A stretch of DNA of 64,000 bases from Neolecta irregularis DAH-3. Its lineage: Eukaryota. Of this stretch, positions 1-57,440 are shown piece by piece. Below the pieces are notes generated by a model. It was not told the origin of the DNA. It searched no databases and saw only the letters and a list, made by a program, of their open reading frames with translations. The first letter of the stretch is position 1. The number at the start of each line of letters is the position of its first letter. Where the stretch lies: the NCBI GenBank assembly GCA_001929475.1, contig LXFE01000243.1, forward strand, positions 1 to 64,000. The letters run 5' to 3'. The translations under genes and the position numbers were made by a program.

Positions 1-167
1 CCGCCGCAGCGGTACACCTCGAGGCGGTTGGTGCGGCTGCCGTCAGCTGCGGGCTAGGATTGGGCATACGCAACAACCAGCACCGGCGGCTCCCCGGCGC
101 CGCCCAGGCTCGCCACAAGCGCGTGCCGCGTCGATGTCGCCGGGTGTGCGGCCGCAACGTAGGCCAT
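1..167 (-). CDS. DDB1: DNA damage-binding protein 1 (CUL4 adaptor), 5' end, runs off the window
   Basis: ATG at 167 and a 33-nt GT-AG intron (69-37) give MAYVAAAHPATSTRHALVASLGGAGEPPVLVVARTNRLEVYRCG, matching the fungal DDB1 N-terminus (MAY..H.P.S.RHA...LVVAK.NRLEI). Confidence 0.8.
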
Positions 168-347
168 GCGCGGTGGGCTGTTCGGGTCGGGTGGCGGTTA
201 GGGTTCGGGCCGCAGTTTGGGTCGCAGTTCGGGCTGCGGGTAGCAGTTGGGGTTCGAACCGATCTGCGCACGTGACCGTGCTCCTGCCGCGCCCTGCTGG
301 CCGCACGCGCTGCCTCCTTCTCCCCGCCCCCCTCTGTCCACCCGCAC

Positions 348-1097
348 ATGGCCACAAAGGCACGCCCCTCCCCGCAATTGCTCTGACTCCCGCAGAACTT
401 TATCCGCGAGTACAAGCTGGTCGTCGTCGGCGACGGAGGTGCCTGCCCCTGCTCGCCGTCCTCACCTTCTAGGCGTCGGCAAGTCCTGCCTGACCATCCA
501 GCTGATCCAGTCGCACTTTGTCGACGAATACGATCCCACCATCGAGGACTCGTACCGCAAACAGTGTCTCATCGACGACGAGACCGCCCTCCTCGACGTC
601 CTCGACACCGCCGGCCAGGAAGAGTATTCGGCCATGCGCGAACAGTACATGCGCACAGGCGAGGGCTTCCTGCTCGTCTACTCCATCACAAGCAGAACAA
701 GCTTTGAGGAGATTTCCACCTTCCAGCAGCAGATCCTCAGAGTAAAGGACAAGGACTATTTCCCCATGATCGTCGTCGCAAACAAGTGCGATCTCGAGGA
801 CGAAAGACAGGTCTCCGTCCAGGGTTCCTCCCCTCTCTCCTCCTAGCCTGATCCCTCAGAGGGCCGCGATCTCGCAAGAGAGTTCGGCTGCAAATTCGTA
901 GAAACCTCTGCAAAATCAAGAATAAACGTCGACGAAGCCTTTCACAACCTCGTCCGCGAAATTCGTCGCTACAACAAAGTACCCTCCCCTCCTCTCCCTG
1001 CTAACCCCAGGAACAATCAGATTCACGCGCAAACGGCTCTGCCGCACACGATGATGGAACTTCCTCGGCTTGCTGCTCCGGTTGTATTGTGATGTAA
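348..1097 (+). CDS. RAS1: Ras small GTPase
   Basis: 5 exons; introns 360-395 (GC-AG), 439-472, 824-859, 979-1010. Motifs [40 protein letters not shown]-terminal CCSGCIVM CaaX. Confidence 0.98.
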
Positions 1098-1533
1098 TCC
1101 TTCTTCTCTTTTGGATCTCGATGTTTGGTTTTCCCCTTGTTATCATTCAATGGAGTAATCGCTATGCTTTGGACGCCGCCTCCTATTTCTATTCATTTAA
1201 TACCTCTCTCTGTCTCCAGTATTTCTATATACCAGAATTCCAATCATCTTCCTCCGTCTTATTGTATGATTGAACAAGATTGATTTTGATTTTGTTTGAT
1301 TGTTATATTTCCTTTACTTTGTAGAGTCGTCTTCACCAATATTCATTCAATTCACACTTGGTCTAGTTTACATCACTACTTCATTTCTAATGAATCATGT
1401 CTTTGCATGTCAAACACTGGATATACGCCGAGGTCGGTAGAGAAAAATTGCACCCTCAACACTACATAAATTTCTAGAAAGCACTAGTACGTATACAAAT
1501 TGCAACAAACATCATCTGCCTCCCATTCTATCC

Positions 1534-8123: not shown

Positions 8124-9256
8124 ATGAACGAAGAAGACGAATTTTTGTATGGGGGTGAAGGTGAAGATTATGAGCAGACGAATCTCACAAAAGATACAAG
8201 GTCTGAGACTCTGGAAGTCGCGGTGATGGGAAATGAAACGGGAGAGGAAGGGGGAATTGAATCGGACAGCGATTCGGGATGAGGTGGGGAGAAGGTGTAT
8301 GGACTAATAGGGTAGGATCTTGAAGTTATTATTGACTTGGATGCGGGGAAGAAGGCAGAACCTCCCAGCCAGCAAGCGTAATATTTGTGTATGGCGGGGA
8401 AATGGACTGATGGGACAGGCGGCCTGGGATCCGAATGGTCCGGCCTGATGCGAGTGGAGCAAAAGCGGCGGTGAAGCAAACAGGCAAGGATGTGTGGAGG
8501 GGAGAATGCTTACGGGCAAGAAGCGGTGAGAGCGGTGACGCCGCCTCCGGGAGTGGAGATTGACCGTGTGGGGATGCTTGAGGCCAAGGAGATTACCACA
8601 CTTAATCTTGAGGAGCTGGAAGAGAAGGGATGGCGCAAGCCGGGTAGGCGAGGCGGCGGGTGAGCTGTGGCTGACGGGACAGGTGCGGATATTACTGATT
8701 TTTTCAACTATGGGTTTGATGAATTTACGTGGGCGGCATACTGTTCAAAGCAGGCGGCAGTGCGGCAGGACTACAATCCAGGCAAGATCATGGCGGTATG
8801 TGGTGCCGGGGCGCATGGGTGCTGAGCGGGACAGGGCATGTATGGGATGGATGCGGGGATGATGATGGGCGGGATGCCGGGCGATCTGCATGCAATGATG
8901 GCAGGCGGCTATCCCGCGATGCACGGCGACATGATGATGCGCCCACCAGATATGTTTGGCCCGCAAATGCAGATGCAGCCAGGCGTGGGTGTGGGTGTGG
9001 GTGTGGGTATGGGTATGGGCGTGGGACCTGGGCGCGGGATAGCACCGCCACAGGCACCCCCACCCGCGGCGGTGGCTGGTGCAGAGAAAGCCGGGGTGCG
9101 ACAACCCAGTGGCGAGTGCAGACTGACGGCCAGGACTCGACGCCACAGGGCCCGCCGTCCTTCTTTGGCACCGACTTTAGCGGAGTGCCCACTGGCCCCT
9201 CTGCAAAGGCGCCTCGTGGTCCTCGTGGCCGCAGAGGGCGCTTCCCGCAGCCATAG
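8124..9256 (+). CDS. FIP1: Pre-mRNA polyadenylation factor Fip1
   Basis: [10 protein letters not shown] start; spliced Fip1 motif [30 protein letters not shown]; Met/Gly/Pro-rich C-terminus ending [22 protein letters not shown]. Confidence 0.92.
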
Positions 9257-9299
9257 CAGCCTGTATGCTATATAGCCGGTTCTCCCCTTGTCCTTCCTT

Positions 9300-9510
9300 C
9301 CCCCACCACCATCTCGTAGTCCATCCTATCTCATCCATCAGCATCTATCTAATACCTATCTCATCCATCAGCATCCATCTAATACCCATCCGGCCCATCA
9401 CATCGTCTAGGCCCATCCATCCACATCCCCATCTTCTGATCATCAGGTATCATCTAATCCCATCCGGCCCATACACATCCTTTAATACGCATACACCTCA
9501 TCTAATCCCC
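9300..9510. repeat. Degenerate ~30-bp CATC-rich tandem repeat
   Basis: cctatctcatccatcagcatc(t/c)atctaata at 9325-9354 and 9355-9384, with decayed copies downstream. Confidence 0.7.
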
Positions 9511-16993: not shown

Positions 16994-19900
16994 CTACGGA
17001 CTAGGAGGAGCATAGGCAGGACTAGCAGGCTCATCACCCCATCCTCCAGGTGTCTTTACAGTTTGTCCAGTCGGACCTGGCGTTGGAGCAATGTCCCAGG
17101 GTGCAGGAGTATAGGCAGGCGAAACAGCACCACCCCACTGGAAAATCAGTATCAAATACAGGTCGAAGCAAGTTACCGAAGCACCAGGTGTAGGAGCAGC
17201 CCACTCATTTGCAGGGGGAGCGGTTGGTGGAGCAGGATTTTGTTGAGATGTATCTCCTAATCCACTTTGAGATGAGGTGTTCAAGGCAGTGTTTCCCCAG
17301 CTCTCATGACTTGGTGCTGGAGCATCATTAGTCCAACCATCCCTTTTAGGAGTTGTGGCAGTTGCTGAAGTTCCCCATCCGTTGTTGATATCAGAAACCG
17401 TTTGACCGGAGGGAGTCGGTCCCCATGCAGGCGTCCGACTTCCACTGTTCCATGCAGGAGTCTGGTTTCCAACACCATGGGCAGGTGTTCGAGATCCTGA
17501 GTCCCAGGCGCTATGAGCAGGTGTGGCACTAAACTGTGAAGTCTTTTCCAAGAGCTGCTCACCTTCCGGAATTCCAAGCGGGTGTAGCATTTCCAGACTT
17601 CCATGATGGGGTTGTATTTCCAGCCGCTCCGTTCCAAGCTGGTGTACGACTACCCGCCCAAGCCGGTGTTCTAATATCTTGTCAGCGTCTCCAAAAGTTT
17701 GAACTATGAACCTTGCGTCGCTTCCTCCTGTACCTCCACCCCAGGCCGGTGTTCGTACTCCCCAAGCCGGCGTTTTGGACCCGGAGGCTCGAGCATTCTG
17801 CGCCCAAGCTGGTGCGTTACTATCAGAAGGCCCTGATCCAAACTGATCGCCCCGGCCTGGTCTCATGCCCTTTGATTGAGCGAGGAAATCGAAGTAAGAC
17901 ATGACATCTCCATTCCGACTAAGTGTCAGTATATCATCACTGGAGTGGTATACTCAGTGAATGATAATTTTTGCTTGTCAATAGTGATTGTTTTCGCCGA
18001 TGTATGCAACTCGACTCGCGCACTCTGATCAGTGGTATCCTTTATAATCCCTAAAAGCCCTTTCTGTGGGCCCTGTCGTATACGAACAGTCTCTCCGATA
18101 CATTTATCCCGACCAATCATCTTCGGCATTGCGTTGGGTTTTTTGAAGTCTCCAGAACTAGCATTGATCCTCCCATTCTTACCCATGATAGTTTGCAAAT
18201 TCCTGATATTACAAACGAACACACCAGAATTCTGATGATAATCTCTATTTGATAAAAACGCAGTTCCCCTATGGATATGTAGAATGGTTCCTTGACGAAG
18301 TTCGCCATCAGCTTCGCGAACTGTATCGCCGACACGTATTTCAGAATTCTCTCTATCCATTGCGACGGCTTTTTTGTGAGGAATAAGTTTGAGTTTATGG
18401 GATATTGGGAAAGTCTGGATGGAACCAGTTTGGTCGATTACTTTTACTGCGTTATTGTCAGATTTAATGACCACACCGACTGAAGTGACACAGGGGAATA
18501 AGTAGTGGGATATAAAGGATGCATACTTCAGTTCAACAAGATCGTGCAGATCAAGACTGTTTAATTTGATACCGGCAGTGTCCGTAGCTTCCCCAAGATG
18601 CTTTGAGAGCACCACAATCTCTTCAGTGGTTGTATCCGTTAGTAACGTAACTTGAGCATCCCGGACACGAATCACCATTCCCGTAGTGTCCTTGTGTTTT
18701 CCAGCGATTACTTTAACGTGATCACCCTGAGAAAACTGCTTTCGAAGATTCTTAGGTGGAACTGTAGTTCTGCTACCGCGTAACTGATCGGAAGCAATGA
18801 TTACCACCACATTTTGATCAATACTACTTTGGACTTTACCAATAAGACCTTTCTGTTCACCCTCTGTAATCTGAACTGTATCTCCAACCTGAAATATAGA
18901 TGTATCTGCAGCTTTGAGGTTCTGCACAAGTGCATTGAGCGATTCTTCTACAATTGGTAAGAAGATTGAGAAAGTAGCCAAGCGCGCCTTGATTGCCATT
19001 CCGATCTGGCGCAAAGAGTTCGAGCTCTTCGATACGTGGAACAATTCCCTCGATGGTCAAAGCGGCGACCTTGATATCTTTGAACAGAAAACCATCTTCA
19101 TACTCATCACCTTGAAGAACAAATGAATTATTCGAACGCCGTTGAATTGAACGGTCCGGAAGTTTCCTCGTTATCAGTATATAGGTACGGAATGGAATAT
19201 ACGCAGCTTCATGTTCATTTAGCAGTTTTGCTTTCGGACGGTTTTTAGGAGTATAAGCCTTCTTTCGTCTTTTTCCATCGGCCGAGATGACATATATGCT
19301 ATCCATATCCGTTCGTGGAACGATTTTGACCCTAGCTGATAAAGCGTCTTCCGAAATATTTTCGACCAATCCAAGATCCCCAGCATATATCCCACGTTTT
19401 ATTCGAACCCATGAATTTGGCTGCAATTCGACATTGTTAGCTTTCACTCTCATGAGGTCCATCATCTCGTTGATAGCAACTAGCTGTATACGGGTTCCAA
19501 AAAAGCCGGTGATACCATTGATAGCCTATATGGTAAGTTTTCTCTTCAAGAGAAGTAAATACTTCATCAACATAAGCTTTTTTCCGGCTTTCAAAATAGA
19601 TATATTCGTGCAGAGCATCCCGCTGAAAACACGATATGATGCTCAACTTGTTCGCTCCTTCCTGCAACCTGAAAGCTCTTTCCAAGATCTTGTACACAAG
19701 GTCTTTCTCCGTACCACGTCGACATCTTACTGCCCAAATGCTCGCATCCTCTACAGATGGAATTAATAAACGTTTGGAGACAACCGCTGCATCTCCACGA
19801 TACTTTCCCGTCATGTTCCGACCGTATCGCTGTTGAAATTTGGCAGCCATAGCTTCCGCATCATCATCTTCGATTTGTTCACGTTGGCGATCCAAATCTC

Positions 19901-36093: not shown

Positions 36094-37581
36094 TCAAATT
36101 CTTAACCGCTCTCTGACTTTGCTCAAGTCCAAAACGCACAATGGTCTCTTCCAGCTTTCTTCATCTTTAGGTAACTGAACTCCTGCACAATCTCTCCAAA
36201 ACAAAATGATCTGCTCGTCTAAAAATCGTTCCTCAAGATGACTAGAACATCCGAATATCGTCGACAGAAAATCCATTTCAAGGGTAATGGAGTTGAGCCA
36301 TCTGCAGTTCATGGAAAGACTCTTCATCGCGACCACTGAGAACGGGAGAACGGATTCATCAAATTTTAGATGCGCTAATTGTGAACACTTTGACAACGCA
36401 GATATTGTCTCGTGGGTCAAATAGTGACCTGCTCCGCGCCCCAGCGAATCTCTTTGAAATTCAAAACTTTGTAATTTTCCACAGTTTGTCGAAATCGAAA
36501 GGATATCCGTATCCCTCCAATTCCCAATTATGGAAATGTCTCGAATATCTCGATTAATCGTCACAATCGAAGGAATCAGCTCTTTAGGGAAATAAACTAC
36601 GCGACCATGAAGTTTTAACATTCTTAATTTATCAAATTTTACGGGATCAATAGTCCATTTTTGTAGCGTTCGATAAGGTGGCAAAAGGCGTTGTTCGATT
36701 TCCAGATTATGCAAATTGGGGAGAGTCTCTCTAACAGCTTTCCATGTTTCGAAGCTTAAGACCTCTGGACCGAGTATGAGGTGGTTTATCGTCTTCGATT
36801 TTATGTTGGGCAAGATTCGATGGGACTGCTCAAAACAAGTTAGATTTTGGACGGAAAGGAGCATTGATAAATTCTTTTGAGACAAACGATCGTCTGTATA
36901 ACTTGGACAGGAATCGTGAAGGTGAAGCTCCTGAAGATTTGGCAGTACAGAAACCCAGGAATTCAGTAGCGAACAGGATATTGGACGGTGAGTCGTGAGG
37001 GTTATAATTTTCATGGACAAAATGCTAAGAATGCTCGAGATGAACCTCAATTCTTCAGAACCGGAAAGTATTGGGGATGATGCTAGTGCCGGCTCTTGAA
37101 GAACCATTTCAACATTTTGAAGAGATTTTATCGAATTGATCTCTTTGATGAGGTTGAAAGTTTTTGTTGATTGATCTGACATTGAATCATGTTCGTCAAT
37201 ATTGATCTGGATAAACGATATATGTCGGGCTCGACTGAAAAACCTACCCCATCGCTCAAAAGCACTCTCGAAGCCCACAGAGTTCGTCCCACCGGGCGCC
37301 AGATCGATCCTTACTCGTTTAACGAACTTTGCGTTTTGAGGAGACAGGTCCGACATATTCTTAAAGCGATCAGCCAAGCCTCGAAATTCTCCCGCGACCA
37401 ATCGATTAGAAAAGGATACATCGATACAACGATACAGCTGTGGAGCTGCCAAGCTATAGAACAACCGACTCACGTAAAGACACGACCTCAAATCAGTTAA
37501 TTGGAGGGTTTTGAATATTTGAATCTGAAGTTCCGGCAGCAAAACAATGGTTGGTGGGGCCGAATGGAATGAAAGAAGCAT
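36094..37581 (-). CDS. F-box protein with LRR-like C-terminus (intronless)
   Basis: LLPELQIQIFKTLQLTDLRSCLYVSRLFYSLAAPQLYR F-box; repeated LxxLxL motifs; 495 aa. Confidence 0.85.
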   Translation of the reverse strand: MLLSFHSAPPTIVLLPELQIQIFKTLQLTDLRSCLYVSRLFYSLAAPQLYRCIDVSFSNRLVAGEFRGLADRFKNMSDLSPQNAKFVKRVRIDLAPGGTNSVGFESAFERWGRFFSRARHISFIQINIDEHDSMSDQSTKTFNLIKEINSIKSLQNVEMVLQEPALASSPILSGSEELRFISSILSILSMKIITLTTHRPISCSLLNSWVSVLPNLQELHLHDSCPSYTDDRLSQKNLSMLLSVQNLTCFEQSHRILPNIKSKTINHLILGPEVLSFETWKAVRETLPNLHNLEIEQRLLPPYRTLQKWTIDPVKFDKLRMLKLHGRVVYFPKELIPSIVTINRDIRDISIIGNWRDTDILSISTNCGKLQSFEFQRDSLGRGAGHYLTHETISALSKCSQLAHLKFDESVLPFSVVAMKSLSMNCRWLNSITLEMDFLSTIFGCSSHLEERFLDEQIILFWRDCAGVQLPKDEESWKRPLCVLDLSKVRERLRI

Positions 37582-37654
37582 CTATGGGATCAGGACAACT
37601 TTGGGAGGTCTGTGAAATATCCAGGCACGAGAAAGGGGGAAATGCACAAATTAG

Positions 37655-38399
37655 GGAGATCCAGGCTGGTGGCTGCAAAACATGGTGTATACCCTTGTTC
37701 TGTGTGGTGTGACCACCCTGGCCATAACGCTCGCATGTGATATGCAAGGAGCAGGAAACCTCGCAGCAGGAATCAATAATATATTCATCTCAAGGTCGGA
37801 CTATCGAACAATTATCTCGGTTAAACCTAGCACGCTTCCCCAAAGCCCCAAATTCCGGCGATTCCAACTAAGGCCGGCCAGGTGTGGTGACTACCAAGTT
37901 CCACCGCCCCTATACGGGAGTACAGGCTGGATTCGGGCTGTAGGAGGGAGAAGACGGAGGGAGCTTGCCCAGTCAGGGGAAGCGGACCTCGATGAGGAGG
38001 GCAATTCTGATCCGGGGGAGGAGACGAAGCTTGTCGCGAGTAAATGTCAAAACGCGATCTCGTCGTCTTGCCGCAGCGACTCGCTTCTCCCCTTACTCTA
38101 CCACTATTCCTATCCATCTCCAACAGCTACCTCCTGTTGCTCCGCCAGAACTTCTATCGTTCCCCATGTCGTCATATCGATTATCCCCAGCTACCTCACA
38201 TGGCATTTTTTGAAGTCAAAGCACGCAGTCAACCAAACCAACAACGTGTTCTGTGCTTGACGGGCTGGTGAGGCAGGCAGGCAGAGGGGAGGGGAAGGGC
38301 TGACCTAAATAGTATATCTCACGTGAAAAAGCCCGTATCGGCCGATGGGCCAATGGGCCGTGCTATGGCCCGGCCACCCAGGGCCCGTCCACAACACTG
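37655..38399 (+). mobile_element. Degenerate hAT transposon 3' remnant
   Basis: DPGWWLQN (37658-37681) resembles the hAT dimerization motif DPLxWWxxN; acidic tail; GGCCC-rich subterminus ending ACAACACTG (reverse complement CAGTGTTGT, hAT-type TIR). The other end was not found. Confidence 0.45.
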
Positions 38400-39005
38400 C
38401 TTCTTTCGCGGCTACTTCGAGAAAACCAACGAAAACCCTAGGCAAATATTCTGTCACTGCAGAATCAAGAACCCTCAGAAGACTGTTTCAACGTAGATAG
38501 CGGGGGCCAAGCAGGAGGGGGCCCAGGAGCAGGGCAAACGTCTATCTGTAGAAGCACGACGGGCTCTGCGAGCTTGCCCTGCGTCGCGAGAACGGCGCCG
38601 TGCTGCCGAAGTGCACAAAACAATGATCTCACGAGTCGCATCCAACGGTACCAAGATCGTCCATATCGTACCAAGATTGATGAGGTTAATAAGGGTGGGT
38701 TTGGTGCGCGCCAAATTTCATAAAATGTGGCTTTTAAAAAATTGGAATTTTAGGGGCGCGTTTGGTGCGCTCCACGTTTTATAAAATTTGTCATTGTAAA
38801 AAATTCAAAGTTTAAGCTCAGGTTTGGGGCAACCCCACAATATTCCATACGCCCACATTTAATCAAATAGGGTAACTGTTAAAGTTCGAATTTTAAGTGC
38901 ATGTTTGGTGTGCTCCACTGTTAAATTCAAATTTTAAGGGTGGTGTGCTCCACAGTTAAATTCCGATTTTCTGCCTGCATTGTACTTACAATCCATCCAA
39001 CAACA

Positions 39006-39506
39006 ATGACCAGAGCAAAATGGAATGTCAATCAAGAACAAACGTTGATATATACCTTACTTGATGAAGCAAGAGCAGGGAGAATGTCTCATGGAGGGTT
39101 TAAAAAAGATACATGGGAAAAGGTTCAGGGAATTTTAAATACCAAGTATGGTACTGTATATGATATGGACCAGATGAAATCCAAGTTCAGTACTGTATGG
39201 ACAATTATCTTATGATCAATATTTGCTAACTTGATACAGATGAAACTTGATTATCGAACATTTGCGAAACTTAAACTGAGTTCTGGTTTTGGTTGGGATA
39301 GTAGGAAGGAGACAGTAACTGCGCCAGATGATGTTTGGGATAGTTACATTCAGGAACATCCCAATGCAGCTAATTTCAGACACAAAACTCTTCCATTTTT
39401 TGAAGAACTGGATGAGCTTTTCTTCAAAAGCACCGCGACTGGAGAATTTGCCCTCCCACCTCCATCATTACCGAGGATACAACCGGGATCACGTCCAAAT
39501 CCTTAA
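39006..39506 (+). CDS. Myb/SANT-like DNA-binding protein of the PIF/Harbinger element
   Basis: Two exons (intron 39195-39239), 151 aa: KWNVNQEQTLI..GGFKKDTW..QMKSK..SSGFGWD..VTAPDDVWDSYIQEHP..FRHKTLPFFEELDELF..ATG. Confidence 0.88.
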
Positions 39507-40119
39507 CTCCACCAACGACAACATCAAACAAACTACACCCTTTTCTCCTGCCCTTCTCCTGCAGATTCTCCCCGCCCTGTCAAAACTTTCCTCCTCGCTC
39601 TTCTCGCCCAACACGCGCCGCCGCCCAATGTTTTTCGACGCCTATCTGCTCGCGCTATACCGCCCGCTGCAGCACCCTGCCCCCGCGGCCCCTCGCCGCC
39701 TCCACCTCCCCCGCCAGGCGTTCGCCGCCACAGAGAAGCTCGCCGCCCTCGACGCCTTCGTCTTCGCATGATGCAGCCGACGATCACCCTCGCAGACTGA
39801 GTCCATCATCTCGTTGACAGTCACCCCCGCAGACTGAATCCACCCACAGCAACCGAATCACTCGCTGACGGTCAGAGTCCACCATCTCGTGACGGTCACC
39901 CTGGCAGCAAGAGTCCAGCCAGATGCAGCTGACAGTCGCCCTCGACGCGCAGCTGCACGAGATTGCTGGCTGCGTTGTGCTGGATCTGCGCCAGCCGCAG
40001 GACGTCGCCGCTGTCACTGTCGTGGCCAGGCTGGAAGGCGTCGTGCGCACCAGCTTCCAGGCGCCGAGTGCGCAGCGCCCCGGCCCACGCTGCCGCCGCC
40101 GTCTGCGTCTCCCCCTTCC

Positions 40120-40410
40120 GCGTCCTCCTGCAGCCGCTCGGAAGGTTTCCCGTCGCCGCCGCCCTGGCCGCCATCGACCCCTCGCACCTCTTTCTCGCCT
40201 CCCACTTTGGCGACTCCCACCTCCTCGAGATATCCGCGGCCGCTGCCCGCTCCCTCCACGCCCTGACAAACATCGCCCCCGTCTCAGACTTTTGCGTCCA
40301 CGACTCGGCTCCTCAAAGGCCGTCGTCACCTGCTCCGGCGGCTACAGCGATGGCTCCATCTGCGTTGTCAGAAACGGCATCGCCATCGAAGAACTCGGTT
40401 CCGTCGTCCA
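40120..40410 (+). pseudogene. DDB1: Captured internal DDB1 fragment
   Basis: LGRFPVAAALAAIDPSHLFLASHFGDSHLL...LTNIAPVSDFCVHD / (frameshift near 40305) / VVTCSGGYSDGSICVVRNGIAIEELGS matches DDB1 ([41 protein letters not shown]). Confidence 0.85.
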
Positions 40411-40489
40411 CATCCGCTGACTGCAGGGAGCGCAACGCCTCTGCCCGCCTCCAGCGCCAGCGCGCAGGGACCGCCACGCCGAACAGCAC

Positions 40490-40823
40490 ACAGCCCGACT
40501 CTCTCGTCCTGCCTGCCTGTCCTGCCCGTCCATCCTGCCTCTCTCGTCCTGCCTGTCCGTCCTGCCTCTCCCATCCCGCCCGTCCGCTCTCAGGTCCCGC
40601 CTGCCTCCCCCATCATGCCTGTCCGCTCTCCCGTCCTGCCCGCCTATCTCGCTCTCCGACCCGCCTGTGCCTCCTCTCCCATTCCTCCCGCCCGCCTGCC
40701 TCGCGAGCGTTGCCCACCCATCTCTCTTGCCTCGCCCATCTTTCCTGCCTGGCTCATCCATCTCCCTTCTCACGCACCAGTTTCCTGCCTGGCTCATCCA
40801 TCTCCCTTCTCACGCACCAGTTT
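40490..40823. repeat. CCTG(C/T)-rich low-complexity tract with a perfect 40-bp tandem duplication
   Basis: tttcctgcctggctcatccatctcccttctcacgcaccag at 40741-40780 and 40781-40820. Confidence 0.85.
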
Positions 40824-41730
40824 GGCTAGTTTGGCCTGGCCACCTATTTTATCAACATTCACTCATTCTCCATCCTTTTCTCGACTTTAACCCTTGGGAT
40901 GGATTCTGAGCGACATGTGGCAGCCCTCCATCTCGTGGTAGGAAGTTGCTGCTGACCCTCCTCATGCTGTTCCCCCCACATACCTTGCTACCCCTGCTAT
41001 AAGCACGTCCTTGCTGCCACCAGCTGCTACACCTCACATTCCCCCACAAACAGTACTGCCGCCCGCTTCATGAGACAACCCATCTTGGGGATGGCCAAAG
41101 CTCACAGGATTTTCAGAGGGTTGGGCTGGCCCATTGGTCCAGGCGACGCTATTCAGACTGCTTATTCCAAAGTGTTAGCGATTGAAATACAATCTAGACT
41201 TTGTAATAGTGGATTGTAGAGTACCAATTGTTCCAGATGGGTATTCTGGGTATGGGTCTAGGGCGATTTTTCCTCTTTGGTTTCGTCGTGTAAATAGAAA
41301 AAACAGGTCCACACACAGGTCCACACCTGTTTTTTCTATTTTGAAGAATTTGGGAGGATCCTGACCAAACACGCGCTTAAAATACGAATTTTTGGAAAGT
41401 ATATTTTATAAAATGTGGGGCACACCAAACGTGCGCCTGAAATTCCTGAAAGCCACATTTTATGAAATTTAGGCACCAAACGCAATCTAAAATAAAGTGA
41501 AAGTTACCGTTTTTGATCACACGAAAGAGGAGAATAACGAGATCGACGGGTAGAATCCAACGGTACCTTAATCTTTGAACAGAACTTTGATCAACTGTTG
41601 AAATTGTCTAGCCTTGTGAAACCATCTACCTGTTACTTTTCTGTCTTAGAAAGTGTTCCAGTCAAATTTCTAGACACTGCCATATATTGTTTTAATGTCT
41701 TCCTGACACTGCCGTTGCACAACACAAGTG

Positions 41731-42670
41731 ATGGAAAACATTCACCAAGTGGCGAAAGAAGCTTGGGATAGGAACGATGCATGCGCAGGAGATTTCTATG
41801 ATCGTGTGCGACCTCCGTATCATGCTGAGGCTATTGAACTTGCTGTTGAAAAAATTGAGTTGAAGCCCGGTGATCGTGTTATTGAACTAGGTATGTATTT
41901 TCTTTGATCCAATGAAGCTAATCATAGGGTCCGGGACGGGGAAGTTTACTTGTATGATAAACGAGATCGAGCGTTATGAATGGGTAGTTATCGAACCCGG
42001 AGCAGTATGATACCTCCCATATCTAACTGAGGCAACAGAGTATGCGGAAAGTATTCGGAAAAAATATCCCTCACGTCAAATGCCTACCGGGGTCCGGATA
42101 TTCGATCCCAATACCCGACAAATGGGCTGATAAAATAATTGTCGCTCAAGTATTCCGCTCCTCAGAAACGCTACTGAATTAAAGGCTTTTCATTGGTTTG
42201 CTGATCACGACGCCCTCCGCGAAATAAATCGTGTTCTAAAGGATAATGGTAGACTATGCTTGCTGTGGATGGTACCAGATACTGCGGCATATCAGCCTCC
42301 TTGGCAACAGTCGGTGTTCGATTTGTATAGGTCATACCAAGGCTCAACTCCTGGATACGATGATCTTCTTTGGACCCGCGCTTTTCGAGACCAGAAACTT
42401 TTTGGCGAGTTGCAGCAATACATATTTCGTTATAGTCGGACTTGTCGAGATGAGGACATCTGGCTTGGCATTGCATCAATCTCATATATTTCATATTTGG
42501 ATGAGGATGTGAAAAAGGATGTGAAAGAAAGAATAACAGCCATTGTCGCAGCGGGGAATGGGATGAAGAGGGATGAGCTAGGTCGGGTTTGGAATCTGTG
42601 GAGGACAGATATATATATTTCCGATAAGCTAACGTAGTATTGGAAACTACGGAAGAGATATCAACGTAAT
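41731..42670 (+). CDS. Class I SAM-dependent methyltransferase (3' end approximate)
   Basis: YDRVRPPY, VIELG|SGTGKFT, IIVAQ|AFHWF, EINRVLKDNGRLCLLW. Confidence 0.88.
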
Positions 42671-48989: not shown

Positions 48990-49302
48990 GGGTGCGTTTG
49001 GTGCGCGCCAAATTTCTTGAAATTTGGCAATTCTTCAAATTACAATTTTAAGCGCGCGTTTGGTGCCCCACTTTCTTGGAATAATTTTTCCGTCTTCCAA
49101 AATTCTTCAAAAAAGAAAAGGCCGGTTGCGCGACAAACAGTAAAAAATTGAAAACAGATTTGGTGTGCGCCAAACGTGTTGGGTGGGTTATAAAAATAAT
49201 TTCATAAATTGTACTTTTATGTGTTACACCAAACGCGCTCTTAAAATTGGAATTTGAAGAATGGCCAAATTTCAAGAAATATGGCGCGCACCAAACGCAC
49301 CC
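48990..49302. mobile_element. PIF/Harbinger (Tourist-like) MITE, 313 bp
   Basis: ~75-bp TIRs starting GGGTGCGTTTGGTGCGCGCCA; flanks ATA/TTA; same TIR family as the 38693-41487 element. Confidence 0.88.
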
Positions 49303-52791: not shown

Positions 52792-55700
52792 TCATACCTT
52801 CCCAGTCTTGTCCATGTTCATACCAACACCCTTATCCTGACCGGAAATCCGTGCAAGTACAACTTTCATCTTTTCTAGTAATTCAGGAATACGGTATGGT
52901 TTTGTCACAAAATCATCCATTCCAGCAGCGATCATTTTATCGATTTGTTCTTTTCGAGCGTTGGCACTTACCGCGATTGCAGGTACATGACCGCAAAGTT
53001 CACCTTTTTGTTCCATTTCGCGAATCTTACGGACGCATGTTATTCCATCCATGACCTTTTTGGTCAACTCTAAATAAAGAAAGGACAAAGTTTTACCGGC
53101 ATTTCTACGTCAACAAGACAGATATCCAGAGGAAAAGCATCGTCCAGGGCACTACTCCGGAATTTAGACTTTGCGATTTGTTCGAGTGCCTCTTGGCCAT
53201 GATTGGCAACGTATGTTGTCCATCCGATTTGATTCAACTGTTTTCGAAGAATCCGCTGATTAATTACATTGTCTTCGACAATCAACACGTGTAGGTCTGA
53301 CAAGTTTAAAAGAGTGAAATTGTAGCTCGATTGATTTAATTGAAATGCATCCACTAATTTTGGCGAAGTTGAGACTACCGGTAATGAATTCATCGATTTA
53401 TCATCTGGGTTTGATCCACGTTGTGCCACGATATAGAAAGCAAAAGTCGATCCTTGACCTTCTACGGAAGATACTGTAATCTCGCCACCTTGAAGTTCAA
53501 CCAATTTCCGGCATATAAAGAGGCCTAAATATTAGGCGTACTGAGATTTCAAATATACCAAGTCCACTACCACCATACTTGACATGAGTCTTTGGGGTAG
53601 CTTGCATAAATCTTTGGAAAAGGATTGCCCGTTCGCCCTCTTTAAGTCCAGACCCTGTATCCGTGACCGAAAAAATTAAATATATCGGGTTCTCGACTAG
53701 TATAGTGCATTGGTTGATCGTCGAATCCGGAAGTGAAGGTCGTTCGGTTGATGCGCTAATGTTGAGTTTGATTAGCCTATGTGGTCTCTTATCCGTGAAT
53801 TCTAAATAAATAAGTTCATAAAACTATAAGGAAATTGTACTTATGGCGTTTGTAAACAAATTGATGAGAACCTGATTGAATCGACTAGGGTCAGCTTTTA
53901 CCCAACAGATACCTAATTCAGTATAACTTTTGTCAAAATCCAACTCAGATGCGATTTGCTTCGACTGTAATTCTGCCTCAAACATCTTCAATACCCCTTC
54001 CACACATTCCTTTAGCTGGAAATCGACAGGTGTAACTAACAATAAATTTGAATCGACTTTAGATAGCGTCAATATATCATTGGTAATTCGTCTCATATGT
54101 GTTGTGCAAAGAACTATTGTTTTCATATCTAAAATATTTTCGTTGACTTTCCGAGCGATATCGATTGAAGAGAAAGATTTACGAGAAGATACCATTTGTA
54201 AAAGATTGTGTAGGCTCTCAACGACAAAATCGACCGTCTGTATGATGGCACCGAGAGGATTTCTCATTTCATGGGAAGTCATGTCGATAAAATATTCCTG
54301 TTGCCGTTTCCGTTCAATTCTTGATGTCAGAAGGAGGCACATGGATGAAATCTTACGCTTCTTCAGCCCTCTTTTGTTGATATTTTTCTGAGTTTTTTCG
54401 TTCAGATACGTTCATTATACAACCGGTAACTCCTATTATTTGACCATGATGGTCATATTCAGGTGCTGAAGAAGCGATTGTCCATCGTTCTTTACCTTGG
54501 TATGGGGTCTTCCAACGATATTCTAGCCTTCTAAATTTTCGTGATTAGTATGCTTTGGAAGAAACGAACTGCTGCTCTCCACGGAAACACTTTTCCCAAC
54601 TTGACTTTACTAGCTTCAAATCATCCGGATGTATGCTGTCCATCCATTCTGTTAATGGCTGGGATTTTGGGTTGCCAGAAATTTCCGACCACGCTTGGTT
54701 GACGTAAGATAATGCTCCTGATGAATCGGCTATGTATATTCCAGCAGGACAAATCTCTGCCATGCGAGTGAACTTCATTTCTGATTGCTTCAACTCTTTT
54801 GTTGTTTGAGCTAGCTGCCTTTGCAACTCGATGCCATTTTGACGACTGAGTTCAGTAATTTCGTTGACTCTTAGGGATAAGACTGATGATTTAGCGGGAA
54901 GGGCATACCGTTTGACATCTTCTTCGAAGAGTTGTACTCGACCCATTCCAGTTGCCAGTTGTCGTGACAATAACTCTAGAAAGATTTGATAAACTTCATC
55001 AAAAGGACGTCGAGGATTCAAGCCCATCATCAACATGCCGCTTGGCCGATCGCCTTCATTTGCAAATATTGGGTATATGACAGCTCGTTGAACCGGAATA
55101 TCCCACCCTCTCCTACATTGATCCGACCCAGCACAGAATTCCTCAACGTTTTCGAATAAAACATAAGAAATGGATTTGTGTGCGGTGATGTAGTATTCTG
55201 CAAGAGGGGATGAAGCATCTATAAGATAGGGTATCAAATTATGGTTAGAGGGAAGTCCTATCGATGCACTGAGGACAAAACTGAGTTGCTGGATTTTATA
55301 GATACAGGCGAAAGGGATATCGTAAGGATTGGAAAGCAACGATTCAAGCGCTACCTGATAAAAGTTATCGGCTTCCTGGGCGGTGGCTAGAGGATCACTA
55401 ATGGACTCGCACTCGATATACCTGCCATCTGCCCGAGATTTCTCAGTGTTTGAATATGGCGTTCTGCGATTACTCGCTTTGTACTATCGAAAGCAGGGTT
55501 CAATAGCCCGCCGACTTTTCCGTCTGGATGCAAGACGGGAACAAGGCTCCATGAAAAATAGCATTCTTCGAGGAACCCGTGACGATTTATGAAGAGGAGA
55601 TCGTCGTCTTTGGTAGAAGGTTTGGCGTTGTAGAATGCATTTTCCATTGTCTCTTCCATAAGTTGCCAGATCTGCAGGGCTATCAGCACTAGACGTCTCG

Positions 55701-56314
55701 TATGGCTAGGCTACCTCTGGCCAGCCCTCGCGATAGAGCTTCCCTAGAAGGGATGGGTGTTTTTGGGCTGTTAATTCAGTGTATGGCTTGTTGTACAGGA
55801 TGACAAGGTCTTCTCCCCAGTACAAAGCGGTTGGAAAGGGACAGGCGAGGACGAAGCTGCATATTGTTCTGAGGGCAATAGGCCACTCGCTGGGATCACC
55901 TATGGAGGTATTTGCCCAGTCCACGCTTTCCAGCAGCTTTATGTGGTTTTGGAATGCCTGCGACTGCTTATGGAGGTTCACTACGCTGGGGAACCCTGTG
56001 CTCTCCGCGGGTTGGGTTTCGCCAGTGACGATGCTCGAGCCGCGCACCAGCGTCTTTGTCCACCGAATCTGCGAGTGATGAGCAGCGAATAGCCCTGCAG
56101 GCGTGGAATAGTGCACTGGCGACATTTTGTCGAACAGGAAATGTGCAAACGGGTCTGACAGCGCGACCAACGAAAATATGCAGGATGCGCCCAGATATTC
56201 TTTGAACCGCGGGTTCGAATATGCCGTGCGCTTAGTCGTGCCGCACACAACCAGCGCAGGCACCGGAAGTGCATCCAGATATTCGACCAGCAGCAGATCG
56301 CAAGGCCCGTGCAT
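52792..56314 (-). CDS. Hybrid sensor histidine kinase (PAS/GAF-HisKA-HATPase-receiver)
   Basis: VDWANTSIGDPSEWP, FIDMTSHEMRNPL (H box), QVLINLFTNA, DTGSG, GGSGLG, VLIVEDN, DVEMP, DDFVTKP. Confidence 0.95.
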
Positions 56315-56505
56315 TTGCAGGACTGGCGCTAGAAAAAAGAATTTTTTTATTGCGGCTTAGAAAGGATGGCAGAAGGCAAAAGGGCGATTCGGATTTCGGT
56401 TTCCTCGGGTTCGGCGCGACCCCGGCGGGTGATTATAGGGTAGGGGCAGCGCCACTCCCAAACCTCGAGGTGCGCCCTTTGATCCAAACCATTCCACACA
56501 AACGC

Positions 56506-57440
56506 ATGAATCCGCCATTTATTCTCAAAGGCATCCCCGCATTCCAGGGCCTCGAGCGTTTTTTTGCAATGCCCTCGAAAATCCGCACACCTGCTTTTAG
56601 CCTCCGCGTCCGCTTTCGCGACCCCAGCGACAAAAATCCCGTTCGAGTCTTGGTTGTCGCCAGCAAGAAACAGATTTCAAACAGTGCTGTTGTCAGAAAT
56701 CGTGTGCGGAGGAGGATAATGGAGGCCGTACGAGTCTCCCTCAGAGAAACAAACCTCTCTTTTGTCTTTGGTGTGCCATCCATCTTCGTCCCTCTCGTTG
56801 ACCCGCAAAAGACTCTCCACGTGATCTTTTCTTCATCTCGCTCGTTGAAGTGTATTCCATGGAGTGGACTGCTCTGCTTCACTATGTCAGAAATGCAATC
56901 GTCCAGACGGAGACGCAAAATCCCAACCTCACAAGACGTGTGACGTTGCCTAGCCGTGTAACGTCGCGCAACCAAAAGCCCGTGCCAAAAGGACAGGAAT
57001 CTCTGAATAAAAGTCCAGTAAAACACAGATCAGAGTCGATAGACTATGTCATGACAAACTGGGCTAAACCGTTCTCCTCATATTTTTCCAACAAACCAGA
57101 AAAATTTAAACCTCGTTCTCCAGGCGACTTTAATTGTACTAAAAGAGACCGGAATTGTACAAATCCATCTCCGGAGCCACCTCAAAGATACGAGAATACG
57201 GAAAAACAGATCTCCAGGTCATCACCAGGAAAAGAAAGATCACCACCTAAACAAACAGAGACACTGCAATGGTCCAATTTTTCTCGTTCAAGTAACACAA
57301 GAGATCAAAACGATAGCCATATAAGAAACCTCGACTCACTGTCTCCGCACTGGGAACAGCCTTCCTGGTCATGCAAAGGTCCAGAAAATATCATGAACAT
57401 CCTCAAAAGAGGAACAAGGTCACAAGGAAGAAGAGACTAG
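56506..57440 (+). CDS. rnpA: Bacterial-type ribonuclease P protein (RnpA-like) with a long C-terminal extension
   Basis: VRVLVVASKKQISNSAVVRNRVRRRIMEAVR is the RnpA RNR motif; a 41-nt GT-AG intron (56771-56811) supplies DLFFISLVEVYSMEWTALLHYVRNAI (last strand and helix); 297 aa in total. Confidence 0.78.

What the first reader, a model, noticed from the sequence alone, without database searches (positions are those of the whole stretch)
38693..41487. Pack-type PIF/Harbinger element carrying several host-gene fragments
Seen: paired TIRs, TAA duplication, AT-rich subterminal repeats and a Myb/SANT ORF surround a GC-rich interior made of at least three unrelated coding-like fragments joined by short repeats. 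No DDE transposase is present. Known: PIF/Harbinger elements encode a Myb protein plus transposase and target TAA/TTA; gene-capturing Pack elements are described mainly in plants and animals. Inference: a fungal gene-capture and exon-shuffling vehicle.
Basis: partly seen in the sequence, partly recalled or inferred. Interest (0 to 1): 0.8.

Follow-up and report, generated by a model that had tools for sequence, protein, structure and literature searches.

The report
Fungal Harbinger transposon carrying captured DDB1 fragment
This is a defective cut-and-paste transposon of the PIF/Harbinger kind in a fungal genome that has lost its transposase and instead carries GC-rich host DNA, including a decaying piece of the DNA-repair gene DDB1, a gene-capturing habit well known in plants but rarely documented in fungi.

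Summary
Window 38693-41487 (2,795 bp) is bounded by TAA/TAA, has about 45-nt imperfect terminal inverted repeats and about 61-nt subterminal repeats, and shares its ends with a 313-bp MITE-like sibling at 48990-49302. It encodes a two-exon Myb_DNA-bind_3 gene. An independent cDNA-like contig lacks that gene's 45-nt intron. No transposase domain was found.

The interior (39507-41130) is 54-70% GC in a 44% GC window.

One cargo piece has a donor. Window 40094-40406 is a frameshifted DDB1 fragment, 57 of 63 residues identical to a Neolecta irregularis DDB1. A donor-type contig runs on as real DDB1 and has the same depth as the unique flanks, so the donor lies in the same genome. Two other segments are coding-like by codon periodicity but have no detectable relatives. 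"Several unrelated host genes" is therefore shown for only one gene.

The GC-rich cargo is not foreign DNA. Other genes in the window also have GC-rich 5' parts. This matches the GC-rich acquisition bias reported for rice Pack-MULEs.

Verdict: a real Pack-type PIF/Harbinger element, a new fungal member of a kind known from plants. The autonomous partner, most donors and mobility after capture remain untested, because no genome was available.

The parts
38690..38692 (.). Left copy of the 3-bp target site duplication, TAA
   Evidence: Read directly. In run X1, 3 contigs with unlike flanks begin to match at 38690 and 6 at 38692. This is as expected if other copies sit in TAA or TTA sites (table 7).
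38693..38737 (+). Left terminal inverted repeat
   Evidence: Aligns with the reverse complement of the right end and with both ends of the sibling at 48990-49302.
38693..38960 (+). Left subterminal region. It is AT-rich (38% GC) and holds 5 copies of an approximately 35-nt unit containing the GTTTGGTG core, spaced 61, 62, 81 and 35 nt apart.
   Evidence: (families D3, D5, D8).
39006..39194 (+). Myb/SANT-like gene, exon 1 (ATG at 39006)
   Evidence: PF12776 profile positions 1-62 of 96, E 3.6e-7. Covered by X2 record 10.
39195..39239 (+). 45-nt intron (GTATGG...GCTAAC...CAG)
   Evidence: X2 record 10 (727 nt) covers 38793-39194 and 39240-39564 contiguously, so exactly these 45 nt are missing from it (table 8). 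Sequence.
39240..39506 (+). Myb/SANT-like gene, exon 2, ending in stop TAA at 39504-39506. The spliced frame is 151 codons plus the stop. Its last ~20 codons already lie in the transition to the GC-rich part, so the gene looks truncated.
   Evidence: PF12776 profile positions 60-96 of 96, E 3e-7. Frame check. GC rises from 39450.
39507..39778 (+). Cargo segment 1. 64% GC and C-rich, coding-like on the + strand in the frame of 39499 (GC3 0.76). No relative found.
   Evidence: No hit.
39779..39917 (+). Three copies of a 27-nt motif, starts 37 and 75 nt apart, between segments 1 and 2
   Evidence: family D7, 81-85% identity. Summed contig depth in X1 is high here: 3330 against 392-490 in the flanks.
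39893..40093 (+). Cargo segment 2. 70% GC, coding-like in a second frame. No relative found.
   Evidence: No hit.
40094..40406 (+). Captured DDB1 fragment covering the end of the first beta-propeller. It is 313 nt with a one-base gap near 40306 that shifts the frame.
   Evidence: PF10433 profile positions 301-346 of 351, E 1.6e-5, below Pfam's cut-off. tblastn of P0001 gives 26/30 and 31/33 identical residues in two frames. X2 record 12 (2312 nt) matches exactly this interval with 10 differences and 1 gap, and runs on unlike on both sides.
40407..40830 (+). C/T-rich tandem repeats (periods 13, 27, 39 and 40 nt), 67% GC, with no codon periodicity
   Evidence: Up to 11 variant contigs in X1 cover this stretch (table 3).
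40831..41130 (+). Unassigned interior segment, 54% GC
   Evidence: 3-6 variant contigs in X1.
41131..41444 (+). Right subterminal region, 40% GC, containing a perfect 17-nt hairpin at 41292-41341
   Evidence: (I5, I1, I3, I4).
41445..41487 (-). Right terminal inverted repeat. It is degenerate at its outermost bases (GATTGCG against GGGTGCG in the sibling) and lacks 3 nt.
41488..41490 (.). Right copy of the target site duplication, TAA
48990..49302 (.). 313-bp MITE-like sibling of the same family. Its TIRs are near-perfect (first 21 nt identical). Its flanks are ATA and TTA.

Best explanation
Window 38693-41487 is a non-autonomous member of a PIF/Harbinger family in a fungal genome, probably Neolecta or a close relative.

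**What it keeps.** It retains both ends, the subterminal repeats and the 5' part of the family's Myb-like ORF1 gene.

**What replaced the rest.** The remainder of ORF1 and the transposase gene have been replaced by about 1.6 kb of GC-rich DNA. At least 313 nt of this (40094-40406) was copied from the host's own DDB1 gene and is now decaying, with a frameshift and amino-acid changes.

**Inferred, not shown.**
- The element can move only when a full-length relative elsewhere supplies the DDE transposase and a complete Myb protein that recognise the TIR and the GTTTGGTGCGC subterminal sites.
- The foreign DNA entered by template switching during repair of the gap left by an excision, as proposed for Pack-type elements.
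- The GC-rich character of the cargo reflects copying from the GC-rich 5' portions that some genes of this genome have.

**Shown.** The Myb gene is spliced, and the same cDNA-like contig continues 58 nt into the cargo. cDNA-like contigs also bridge both element ends into the flanking DNA. The element sits 243 nt upstream of the ATG of the next gene.
For: **Ends and target site**
- TAA/TAA flanks and the termini are read directly.
- The ends are inverted repeats, E 8e-19 and align with both ends of a 313-bp sibling.
- The core motif occurs 8 times against 0.69 expected.
- In DNA run X1, 9 contigs with mutually unlike flanks start matching at 38690 or 38692, so other copies end at the same boundary (table 7).

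**Family genes**
- Both exons match PF12776.
- No transposase domain in the 28 of the region's 42 ORFs scanned, nor in 39 of the 49 window ORFs of 150 aa or more.

**DDB1 capture**
- PF10433 match.
- The best protein is P0001, named 'DNA damage-binding protein 1a, partial [Neolecta irregularis DAH-3]'. It is 26/30 and 31/33 identical across a frameshift.
- X2 record 12 matches 40094-40406 only. It carries an extra G at 40306 that restores the frame.
- Its loose end past 40406 translates to DLEGIQAVWD, which equals P0001 residues 60-69.
- The one X1 contig with that G has depth 469.7. The contigs on the unique flanks have 392-490.

**GC-rich host DNA exists locally**
- Islands at 1-700 and 8401-9400.
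- A Ras gene falls from 0.72 to 0.31 GC from 5' to 3'.
- P0001's residue composition shifts the same way.

**Transcription**
- X2 record 10 lacks the 45-nt intron.
- X2 record 14 lacks about 106 nt where I read three ~35-nt introns in the next gene. X2 therefore behaves as cDNA.

**Precedent**
- Pack-PIF elements are described in maize and rice (PMC8903248, passages read).
Against: - **No autonomous partner.** No copy with a DDE_Tnp_4 transposase could be looked for, because no genome is held. Superfamily membership rests on the TSD, the TIRs and the Myb gene alone.
- **Most cargo unassigned.** Only 313 of about 1,620 cargo bases have a donor. Segments 1 and 2 have no relatives.
- **Degenerate right end.** The right TIR is degenerate at its tip, so this copy may no longer be mobile.
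- **Weak TSD evidence.** A TAA/TAA match is expected often by chance for TAA/TTA-targeting ends.
- **Weak sibling evidence.** The X1 joints that suggest siblings sharing cargo have short sides (21-27 letters) at a 90% threshold. The tool warns that such joints often come from repeats.
- **Depth is not copy number.** Summed contig depth is not a copy number, by the tool's own warning.
- **No spanning record.** No single X1 or X2 record spans the whole element.
- **X2's nature is inferred.** X2 is labelled 'DNA?'. That it is cDNA-like is my inference from missing introns.
Confidence: 0.8

Rival explanations
1. Composite, not capture. Two separate family members landed near each other, a Myb-bearing fragment on the left and a MITE-like end on the right. 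The GC-rich DNA between them is simply local host DNA. It is either now mobilisable as a unit or not mobile at all. This is the 'fusion of neighbouring insertions' route.
For: - This route is proposed for Pack-TYPE elements, including a maize Pack-PIF cluster (PMC8903248, passages read).
- The TAA/TAA match is weak evidence for a single insertion.
- The right TIR differs from the left at its tip.
- The left flank 37800-38700 is itself 53-59% GC.
Against: - The DDB1 piece is an internal 313-nt slice of a gene whose real copy continues differently on both sides. The interior is therefore not an undisturbed host locus.
- The interior is a mosaic of frames, tandem repeats and non-coding stretches.
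- Several interior stretches are covered by 3-11 variant contigs in X1, so they are repeated elsewhere (table 3).
- The Myb gene passes straight into the GC-rich DNA with no internal TIR.
Confidence: 0.08
2. One gene, not several. All coding-like cargo (39507-40406) comes from the GC-rich 5' half of the same DDB1 gene, rearranged and internally deleted. The element would then carry one donor rather than three unrelated ones.
For: - All three segments lie in sense orientation, are C-rich on the + strand and share extreme GC3 of 0.76-0.84.
- The 5' half of the Neolecta DDB1 is absent from the protein collection. The 75-aa query matched only over its last 36%. The blanks therefore could not have found it.
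Against: - Pfam's first-propeller model PF10433 matches neither segment, even at E up to 10.
- Searches against the PDB sequences, at E-values up to 10, returned no matches.
- Segment 1 has no relative among 1.84 billion representatives.
- The donor's sequence just upstream of 40094 is unlike the element's (table 7).
Confidence: 0.12
3. Foreign cargo. The GC-rich interior came from another organism by horizontal transfer of the element, or it is a contaminant or assembly chimera, because its composition (GC3 0.76-0.84) is unlike the window's genes (GC3 0.40-0.47).
For: - The composition contrast.
- Neither laid run has a single contig spanning the element.
Against: - The donor-type DDB1 contig has the same depth (469.7) as the unique flanks (392-490) in the same DNA run.
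- Other genes in the window have equally GC-rich 5' parts.
- Exact X1 contigs bridge flank to left end (record 2), Myb exon 2 to cargo (record 4) and right end to flank (record 8). X2 record 11 covers 39705-40123 without a difference.
- The nearest named DDB1 is fungal.
Confidence: 0.04

Closest known systems
Pack-PIF (Pack-TYPE elements of the PIF/Harbinger superfamily) of maize and rice, e.g. Zm-Pack-PIF cluster 18 (PMC8903248, passages read)
   Same: Non-autonomous with TIRs and a TAA/TTA duplication. The interior holds a short slice (there 163 bp at 97% identity, here 313 nt at about 97%) of a host gene located elsewhere. It coexists with shorter cargo-free relatives.
   Different: The host is a fungus, not a plant. 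This element is larger (2.8 kb against about 0.5 kb). It still carries an expressed, spliced remnant of the family's Myb ORF1. Most of its cargo has no identified donor.
Rice Pack-MULEs (PMC5861414, passages read)
   Same: The cargo is much richer in GC than the surroundings. It sits close upstream of a gene, is transcribed, and is a mosaic of fragments.
   Different: Different superfamily: Mutator, with long TIRs and 8-11-bp duplications. A GC bias is seen here for one element only, not for a population.
hAT-mediated transduplication of histone H3 in Pyrenophora tritici-repentis and Pseudocercospora fijiensis (PMC6710886, passages read; PMC3538342, search listing only)
   Same: A fungal DNA transposon carrying a copy of a housekeeping gene between its ends.
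   Different: There the carrier is a hAT element with its transposase domain, the whole intron-less coding sequence was captured, and copies run to tens or hundreds. Here it is a PIF/Harbinger derivative without transposase, with a short internal gene slice at low copy.
Tourist-like MITEs (recalled from general knowledge, not from a call)
   Same: PIF/Harbinger-derived ends with a GTTTGG-type TIR motif, a TAA/TTA target and gene-proximal insertion. The 313-bp sibling at 48990-49302 fits this description.
   Different: The main element is too long and is partly coding.
Turmoil-1 of C. elegans (PMC2572040, start of abstract in a search listing only)
   Same: A transposon reported to have incorporated protein-coding sequences by transduplication outside plants.
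   Different: There the captured sequences lie within the inverted terminal repeats. I did not read the paper.

Membership tests
PIF/Harbinger superfamily | Terminal inverted repeats | tested here: met
   Ends align in inverse orientation, E 8e-19. Four ends of two elements align.
PIF/Harbinger superfamily | 3-bp target site duplication, TAA or TTA | tested here: met
   TAA on both sides. 9 X1 contigs with unlike flanks begin to match at 38690 or 38692. The sibling has ATA/TTA, one mismatch. TAA/TTA as the usual duplication comes from PMC8903248.
PIF/Harbinger superfamily | Second gene encoding a Myb/SANT-like DNA-binding protein | tested here: met
   PF12776 over the whole 96-position profile across two exons, both above Pfam's cut-off. 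That this domain marks Harbinger ORF1 proteins is recalled knowledge.
PIF/Harbinger superfamily | DDE transposase of the PIF/Harbinger type in an autonomous relative with the same ends | not testable with these tools
   No genome is held. None found in the window's ORFs. The TIR scan of metagenome contigs gave 11 chance hits only.
Pack-TYPE element | Non-autonomous: TIRs and TSD but no transposase | tested here: met
   28 ORFs scanned, no transposase domain.
Pack-TYPE element | Interior contains sequence highly similar to a host gene that lies elsewhere | tested here: met
   40094-40406 against the donor-type contig: 10 differences and 1 gap in 313 nt. 57 of 63 residues identical to a named fungal DDB1. 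Shown for one of at least three cargo segments.
Pack-TYPE element | The captured DNA moves with the element: other copies share the cargo and its junctions | tested here: inconclusive
   Variant contigs (2-11) cover cargo stretches in X1, and joints suggest deletion derivatives. The joints over cargo have sides of only 21-27 letters at 90% likeness.
MITE (Tourist-like) | Short (under about 800 bp), non-coding | tested here: not met
   The element is 2,795 bp with a Myb gene. The sibling at 48990-49302 (313 bp) does meet it.

The most novel reading that the evidence does not exclude
This is one visible member of a recently active fungal Pack-Harbinger family. Like rice Pack-MULEs, the family preferentially copies the GC-rich 5' portions of host genes and drops them next to other genes' 5' ends. 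The host would be an early-diverging ascomycete whose genes show a grass-like 5'-to-3' GC gradient. The same acquisition bias would then have arisen independently in a different transposon superfamily and a different kingdom. That would point to a general mechanism, such as open or recombination-prone GC-rich chromatin serving as the preferred repair template, and possibly to a contribution of such elements to the spread of GC-rich 5' segments.
Probability: 0.2. Interest if true: 0.7.

Novelty: new member of a known kind. Interest (0 to 1): 0.5.

Why it matters
Gene capture by cut-and-paste transposons is a recognised source of new exon combinations and of small-RNA cross-talk with parental genes in plants. 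In fungi the documented cases I found are hAT elements carrying histone H3 and Helitrons (PMC4289320, listing only).

My four searches listed no fungal Pack-type PIF/Harbinger element. This is no proof of absence: subscription journals and unread supplements are not covered.

A confirmed fungal case with a donor about 97% identical, a spliced chimeric transcript and GC-rich cargo would allow a direct test. The question is whether the GC-biased acquisition seen in grasses is a property of the repair mechanism or of Mutator elements and grass genomes.

It also explains a local annotation hazard. The DDB1 gene model nearest to the cargo is a partial protein that starts inside the shared stretch, on a 1,935-bp contig.

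Tried and rejected
- **Whole genome.** None is held. I could not do a genome-wide TIR census, a search for an autonomous partner, donor mapping or an empty-site search.
- **Earlier findings of this scan.** Nothing by place, sequence or words.
- **Sequencing runs.** No RNA holder is listed. X2 is labelled 'DNA?'. I treat it as cDNA-like only because two of its records lack introns.
- **Spanning record.** No single record in either run spans the whole stretch.
- **Empty site.** No empty-site joint (38692 to 41491) is among the 15 joints shown; 11 more were not shown.
- **Segment 1 (39499-39768).**
  - Word-based search of longer proteins: none.
  - HMMER over 1.84 billion representatives: 0 hits.
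  - PDB: 0 hits.
  - Pfam at E up to 10: 0 hits.
- **Segment 2 (39893-40093).**
  - Word-based search of longer proteins: none.
  - PDB: 0 hits.
  - Pfam: 0 hits.
  - It was not run against the representatives library, whose cap is one job.
- **Proteins near the query's length.** I never searched these for either segment.
- **TIR scan of metagenome contigs.** A 20-nt TIR pattern gave 11 loci. All are in 55-74% GC contigs, and none continues like the TIR beyond the pattern. They are chance hits.
- **ESM Atlas.** Closed for new sequences.
- **Foreign origin of the cargo.** I considered this first, because of the GC contrast. I rejected it on the donor contig's depth and on the other GC-rich gene starts in the window.
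- **Nested second transposon.** I considered whether the GC-rich interior is one. Neither internal TIRs nor TE domains were found, but this is not excluded for 40407-41130, which is the most repeated part in X1.
- **Short GC-rich direct repeats D11, D14 and D9.** I did not treat these as junction microhomologies. In such C-rich sequence they may be chance.
Full report
**1. What is in the sequence**

The element runs from G at 38693 to C at 41487, 2,795 bp. TAA lies directly outside both ends, at 38690-38692 and 41488-41490.

The two ends are inverted repeats. blastn gives 75% identity over 132 nt, E 8e-19. The repeat finder gives arms of 31-44 nt at 84-87%.

A second, 313-bp element at 48990-49302 has near-perfect ends of the same sequence. 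All four ends align over about 100 nt. Each end holds the terminal GGGTGCGTTTGGTGCGCGCC-type repeat and, about 61 nt further in, a second GCGCGTTTGGTGCGC-type site.

The core GTTTGGTGCGC with up to one mismatch occurs 8 times in 64 kb against 0.69 expected (0 of 100 shuffles reach 8). Seven of the 8 lie in these ends.

The right tip of the main element is degenerate: GATTGCG instead of GGGTGCG, with three bases missing further in. The sibling's flanks are ATA and TTA.

**2. The Myb gene**

The coding frame begins with ATG at 39006 and comprises two exons separated by one short intron.

| Feature | Coordinates |
|---|---|
| Exon 1 | 39006-39194 |
| Intron (45 nt) | 39195-39239 |
| Exon 2, including stop | 39240-39506 |

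This gives 151 codons plus the stop. The exons match Pfam PF12776 (Myb_DNA-bind_3) at profile positions 1-62 and 60-96 of 96, both above the curated cut-off.

GC content rises from about 39450. The last ~20 codons therefore already lie in the transition to the GC-rich interior, and the gene looks truncated. How long full-length relatives are I could not test.

**3. No transposase**

I scanned 28 of the 42 stop-to-stop ORFs of 50 aa or more in 38400-41800. They gave only PF12776, a weak PF10433 match and a weak sub-threshold F-box-associated (PF07735) match that I take as chance. Of the window's 49 ORFs of 150 aa or more, I scanned 39, and none is a transposase.

**4. The interior**

Segment composition:

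| Segment | Coordinates | GC |
|---|---|---|
| Segment 1 | 39507-39778 | 0.64 |
| Segment 2 | 39893-40093 | 0.70 |
| DDB1 piece | 40094-40406 | 0.67 |
| C/T-rich tandem repeats | 40407-40830 | 0.67 |
| Unassigned | 40831-41130 | 0.54 |

The two ends and the Myb gene are 0.38-0.40 GC, and the window as a whole is 0.44.

The whole interior is C-rich on the + strand. Phase-specific GC marks three coding-like stretches, each in a different frame. The tandem-repeat part shows no periodicity. Between segments 1 and 2 lie three copies of a 27-nt motif.

**5. The DDB1 fragment and its donor**

- The frame at 40089-40313 matches PF10433, the first propeller of RSE1/DDB1/CPSF1, at profile positions 301-346 of 351. 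E is 1.6e-5 and the score of 24.5 bits is below the 26.9 cut-off.
- The word-based search of longer proteins returned one protein, P0001, which its source names 'DNA damage-binding protein 1a, partial [Neolecta irregularis DAH-3]'.
- tblastn places P0001 residues 1-30 at 40230-40319 (26/30 identical) and residues 27-59 at 40307-40405 (31/33 identical) in a different frame. The element copy therefore carries a frameshift near 40306.
- I laid the contigs of two public runs on 37500-42500. X2 record 12 (2,312 nt) matches 40094-40406 only, with 10 differences and one gap. That gap is an extra G behind 40306, which restores the frame.
- Beyond 40406 the X2 loose end reads on as DLEGIQAVWD in frame. 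That equals P0001 residues 60-69.
- Before 40094 another X2 loose end reads on unlike the element.
- The slice is thus an internal piece of a real, expressed DDB1.
- In DNA run X1 the same donor-type bases appear in 1-4 contigs per position. The single contig with the extra G has depth 469.7. The contigs on the unique flanks have 392-490.
- I read this as showing that the donor gene lies in the same genome at the same dosage. The tool warns that depth is no strict copy number.
- Two of the differences change residues in the element copy (C for R, I for V). Together with the frameshift, this looks like decay.

**6. Why the cargo is so GC-rich**

Window genes have GC3 of 0.40-0.47, while the cargo frames have 0.76-0.84. 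I first suspected foreign DNA.

Two results argue against that:
- The donor contig's depth matches the flanks (paragraph 5).
- The window itself has other GC-rich islands, at 1-700 and 8401-9400, which reach 0.72 and 0.69. The first is the 5' part of a Ras gene (PF00071), whose GC falls from 0.72 to 0.31 over 1.3 kb from 5' to 3'.

P0001's residue composition shifts the same way along its length: GARP falls from 0.30 to 0.13-0.23, and FYMINK rises from 0.15 to 0.25-0.37.

The cargo therefore fits slices taken from GC-rich gene starts of the host. Rice Pack-MULEs are reported to duplicate GC-rich sequence preferentially, and 71% are more than 10% richer in GC than their flanks (PMC5861414, passages read).

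**7. Other copies**

- In X1 the bin holding the left TIR has a summed contig depth of 10,975, against 392-490 in the flanks.
- Nine contigs with mutually unlike loose ends begin to match at 38690 (3 contigs) or 38692 (6 contigs). This is as expected for copies sitting in TAA and TTA sites.
- Interior stretches are covered by several variant contigs: 11 at 40666, 6 at 40683, 3 at 40960 and 6 at 41179 (table 3).
- Fifteen joints are listed, with 11 more not shown. Among them are skips 39105 to 39442, 38978 to 40640, 40081 to 40803 and 40963 to 41339, which would be deletion derivatives sharing parts of the cargo.
- Those over cargo have sides of only 21-27 letters at a 90% threshold. The tool says such joints often come from repeats. 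I count them as a hint only.

**8. Transcription**

- X2 record 10 (727 nt) covers 38793-39194 and 39240-39564 contiguously, without the intron. It reaches 58 nt past the Myb stop into the cargo.
- X2 record 11 covers 39705-40123 without a difference.
- X2 record 14 starts at 41424 inside the right end and runs into the next gene. It lacks about 106 nt where I read three introns of about 35 nt.
- X2 record 9 runs from 38736 in the left end out over the left flank.
- X2 is labelled 'DNA?'. I infer it is cDNA-like. Contigs cannot give strand, starts or levels.

**9. Setting**

The element lies between an F-box gene on the minus strand (36094-37581, PF12937) and a gene whose ATG is at 41731, 243 nt from the right end.

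The window is a eukaryote with very short introns. It holds CAD, SPT5, Ras and a phytochrome-like histidine kinase. Its GC of 44.0% equals the 44% published for the N. irregularis assembly (PMC5309816, passages read). Together with P0001 this suggests Neolecta or a close relative. I did not test this further.

**10. Comparison with what is known**

- Pack-PIF elements are described in maize and rice, with TAA/TTA duplications and short slices about 97% identical to genes (PMC8903248).
- PIF/Harbinger is part of the core fungal DNA-transposon set, and Taphrinomycotina are reported to have very few such elements (PMC5751038, passages read).
- My searches listed no fungal Pack-type PIF/Harbinger element.
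- For Neolecta, 8 papers hold both 'Neolecta' and 'transposable elements', with neither term in any title or abstract. I opened two of the eight (PMC7940399, PMC8476143) only as listings.

**11. Verdict**

This is a real, non-autonomous PIF/Harbinger element of the Pack type with one proven captured gene slice. It is a new fungal member of a known kind.

Still open are the autonomous partner, the donors of most of the cargo, whether the cargo-bearing form has transposed, and whether the GC bias holds for the whole family.

Noticed in passing
window 48990-49302: A 313-bp MITE-like member of the same family with near-perfect TIRs. Its flanks are ATA and TTA. It lies in an AT-rich intergenic stretch.
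   Followed up: partly
window 1-1400: A Ras-family gene (PF00071) whose GC content falls steadily from 0.72 at its 5' side to 0.31-0.39 downstream. This is a grass-like 5'-to-3' compositional gradient in a 44% GC fungal window. Other GC-rich islands lie at 8401-9400, 17401-17900, 37801-38700 and 55901-56600.
   Followed up: partly
window 38168-38501: The left flank of the element has about double the summed contig depth in X1. It also has joints (38286 to 38319, 38315 to 38378) and three loose ends at 38319. A second small repeat may sit here in the GC-rich region upstream of the F-box gene.
   Followed up: no
window 38631-38652 and 41546-41567: A 22-nt direct repeat (86% identical, core ATCCAACGGTACC) lies about 40 and 60 nt outside the two ends of the element. 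It may be a promoter motif pair of the interrupted intergenic region.
   Followed up: no
window 41892-42184: The gene downstream of the element appears to have three introns of only about 34-36 nt. An X2 contig lacks about 106 nt here. The Myb intron is 45 nt. Introns in this genome seem unusually short.
   Followed up: partly
window 56236-56943 (+): An ORF matching Pfam PF00825 (bacterial-type ribonuclease P protein), E 1.4e-8, in a eukaryotic window. It overlaps ORFs on the opposite strand next to the phytochrome-like histidine kinase gene. Unexplained.
   Followed up: no
window 53070-56356 (-): A phytochrome-like hybrid histidine kinase with GAF, PAS, HisKA, HATPase_c and receiver domains.
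   Followed up: no
window 41292-41341: A perfect 17-nt hairpin (AAATAGAAAAAACAGGT with its complement), enclosing a 12-nt tandem duplication, in the right subterminal region of the element.
   Followed up: no
protein P0001 (NCBI partial DDB1 model): The public partial DDB1 protein starts inside the stretch shared with the transposon, on a 1,935-bp contig. The repeat may have broken that assembly and truncated the gene model.
   Followed up: no
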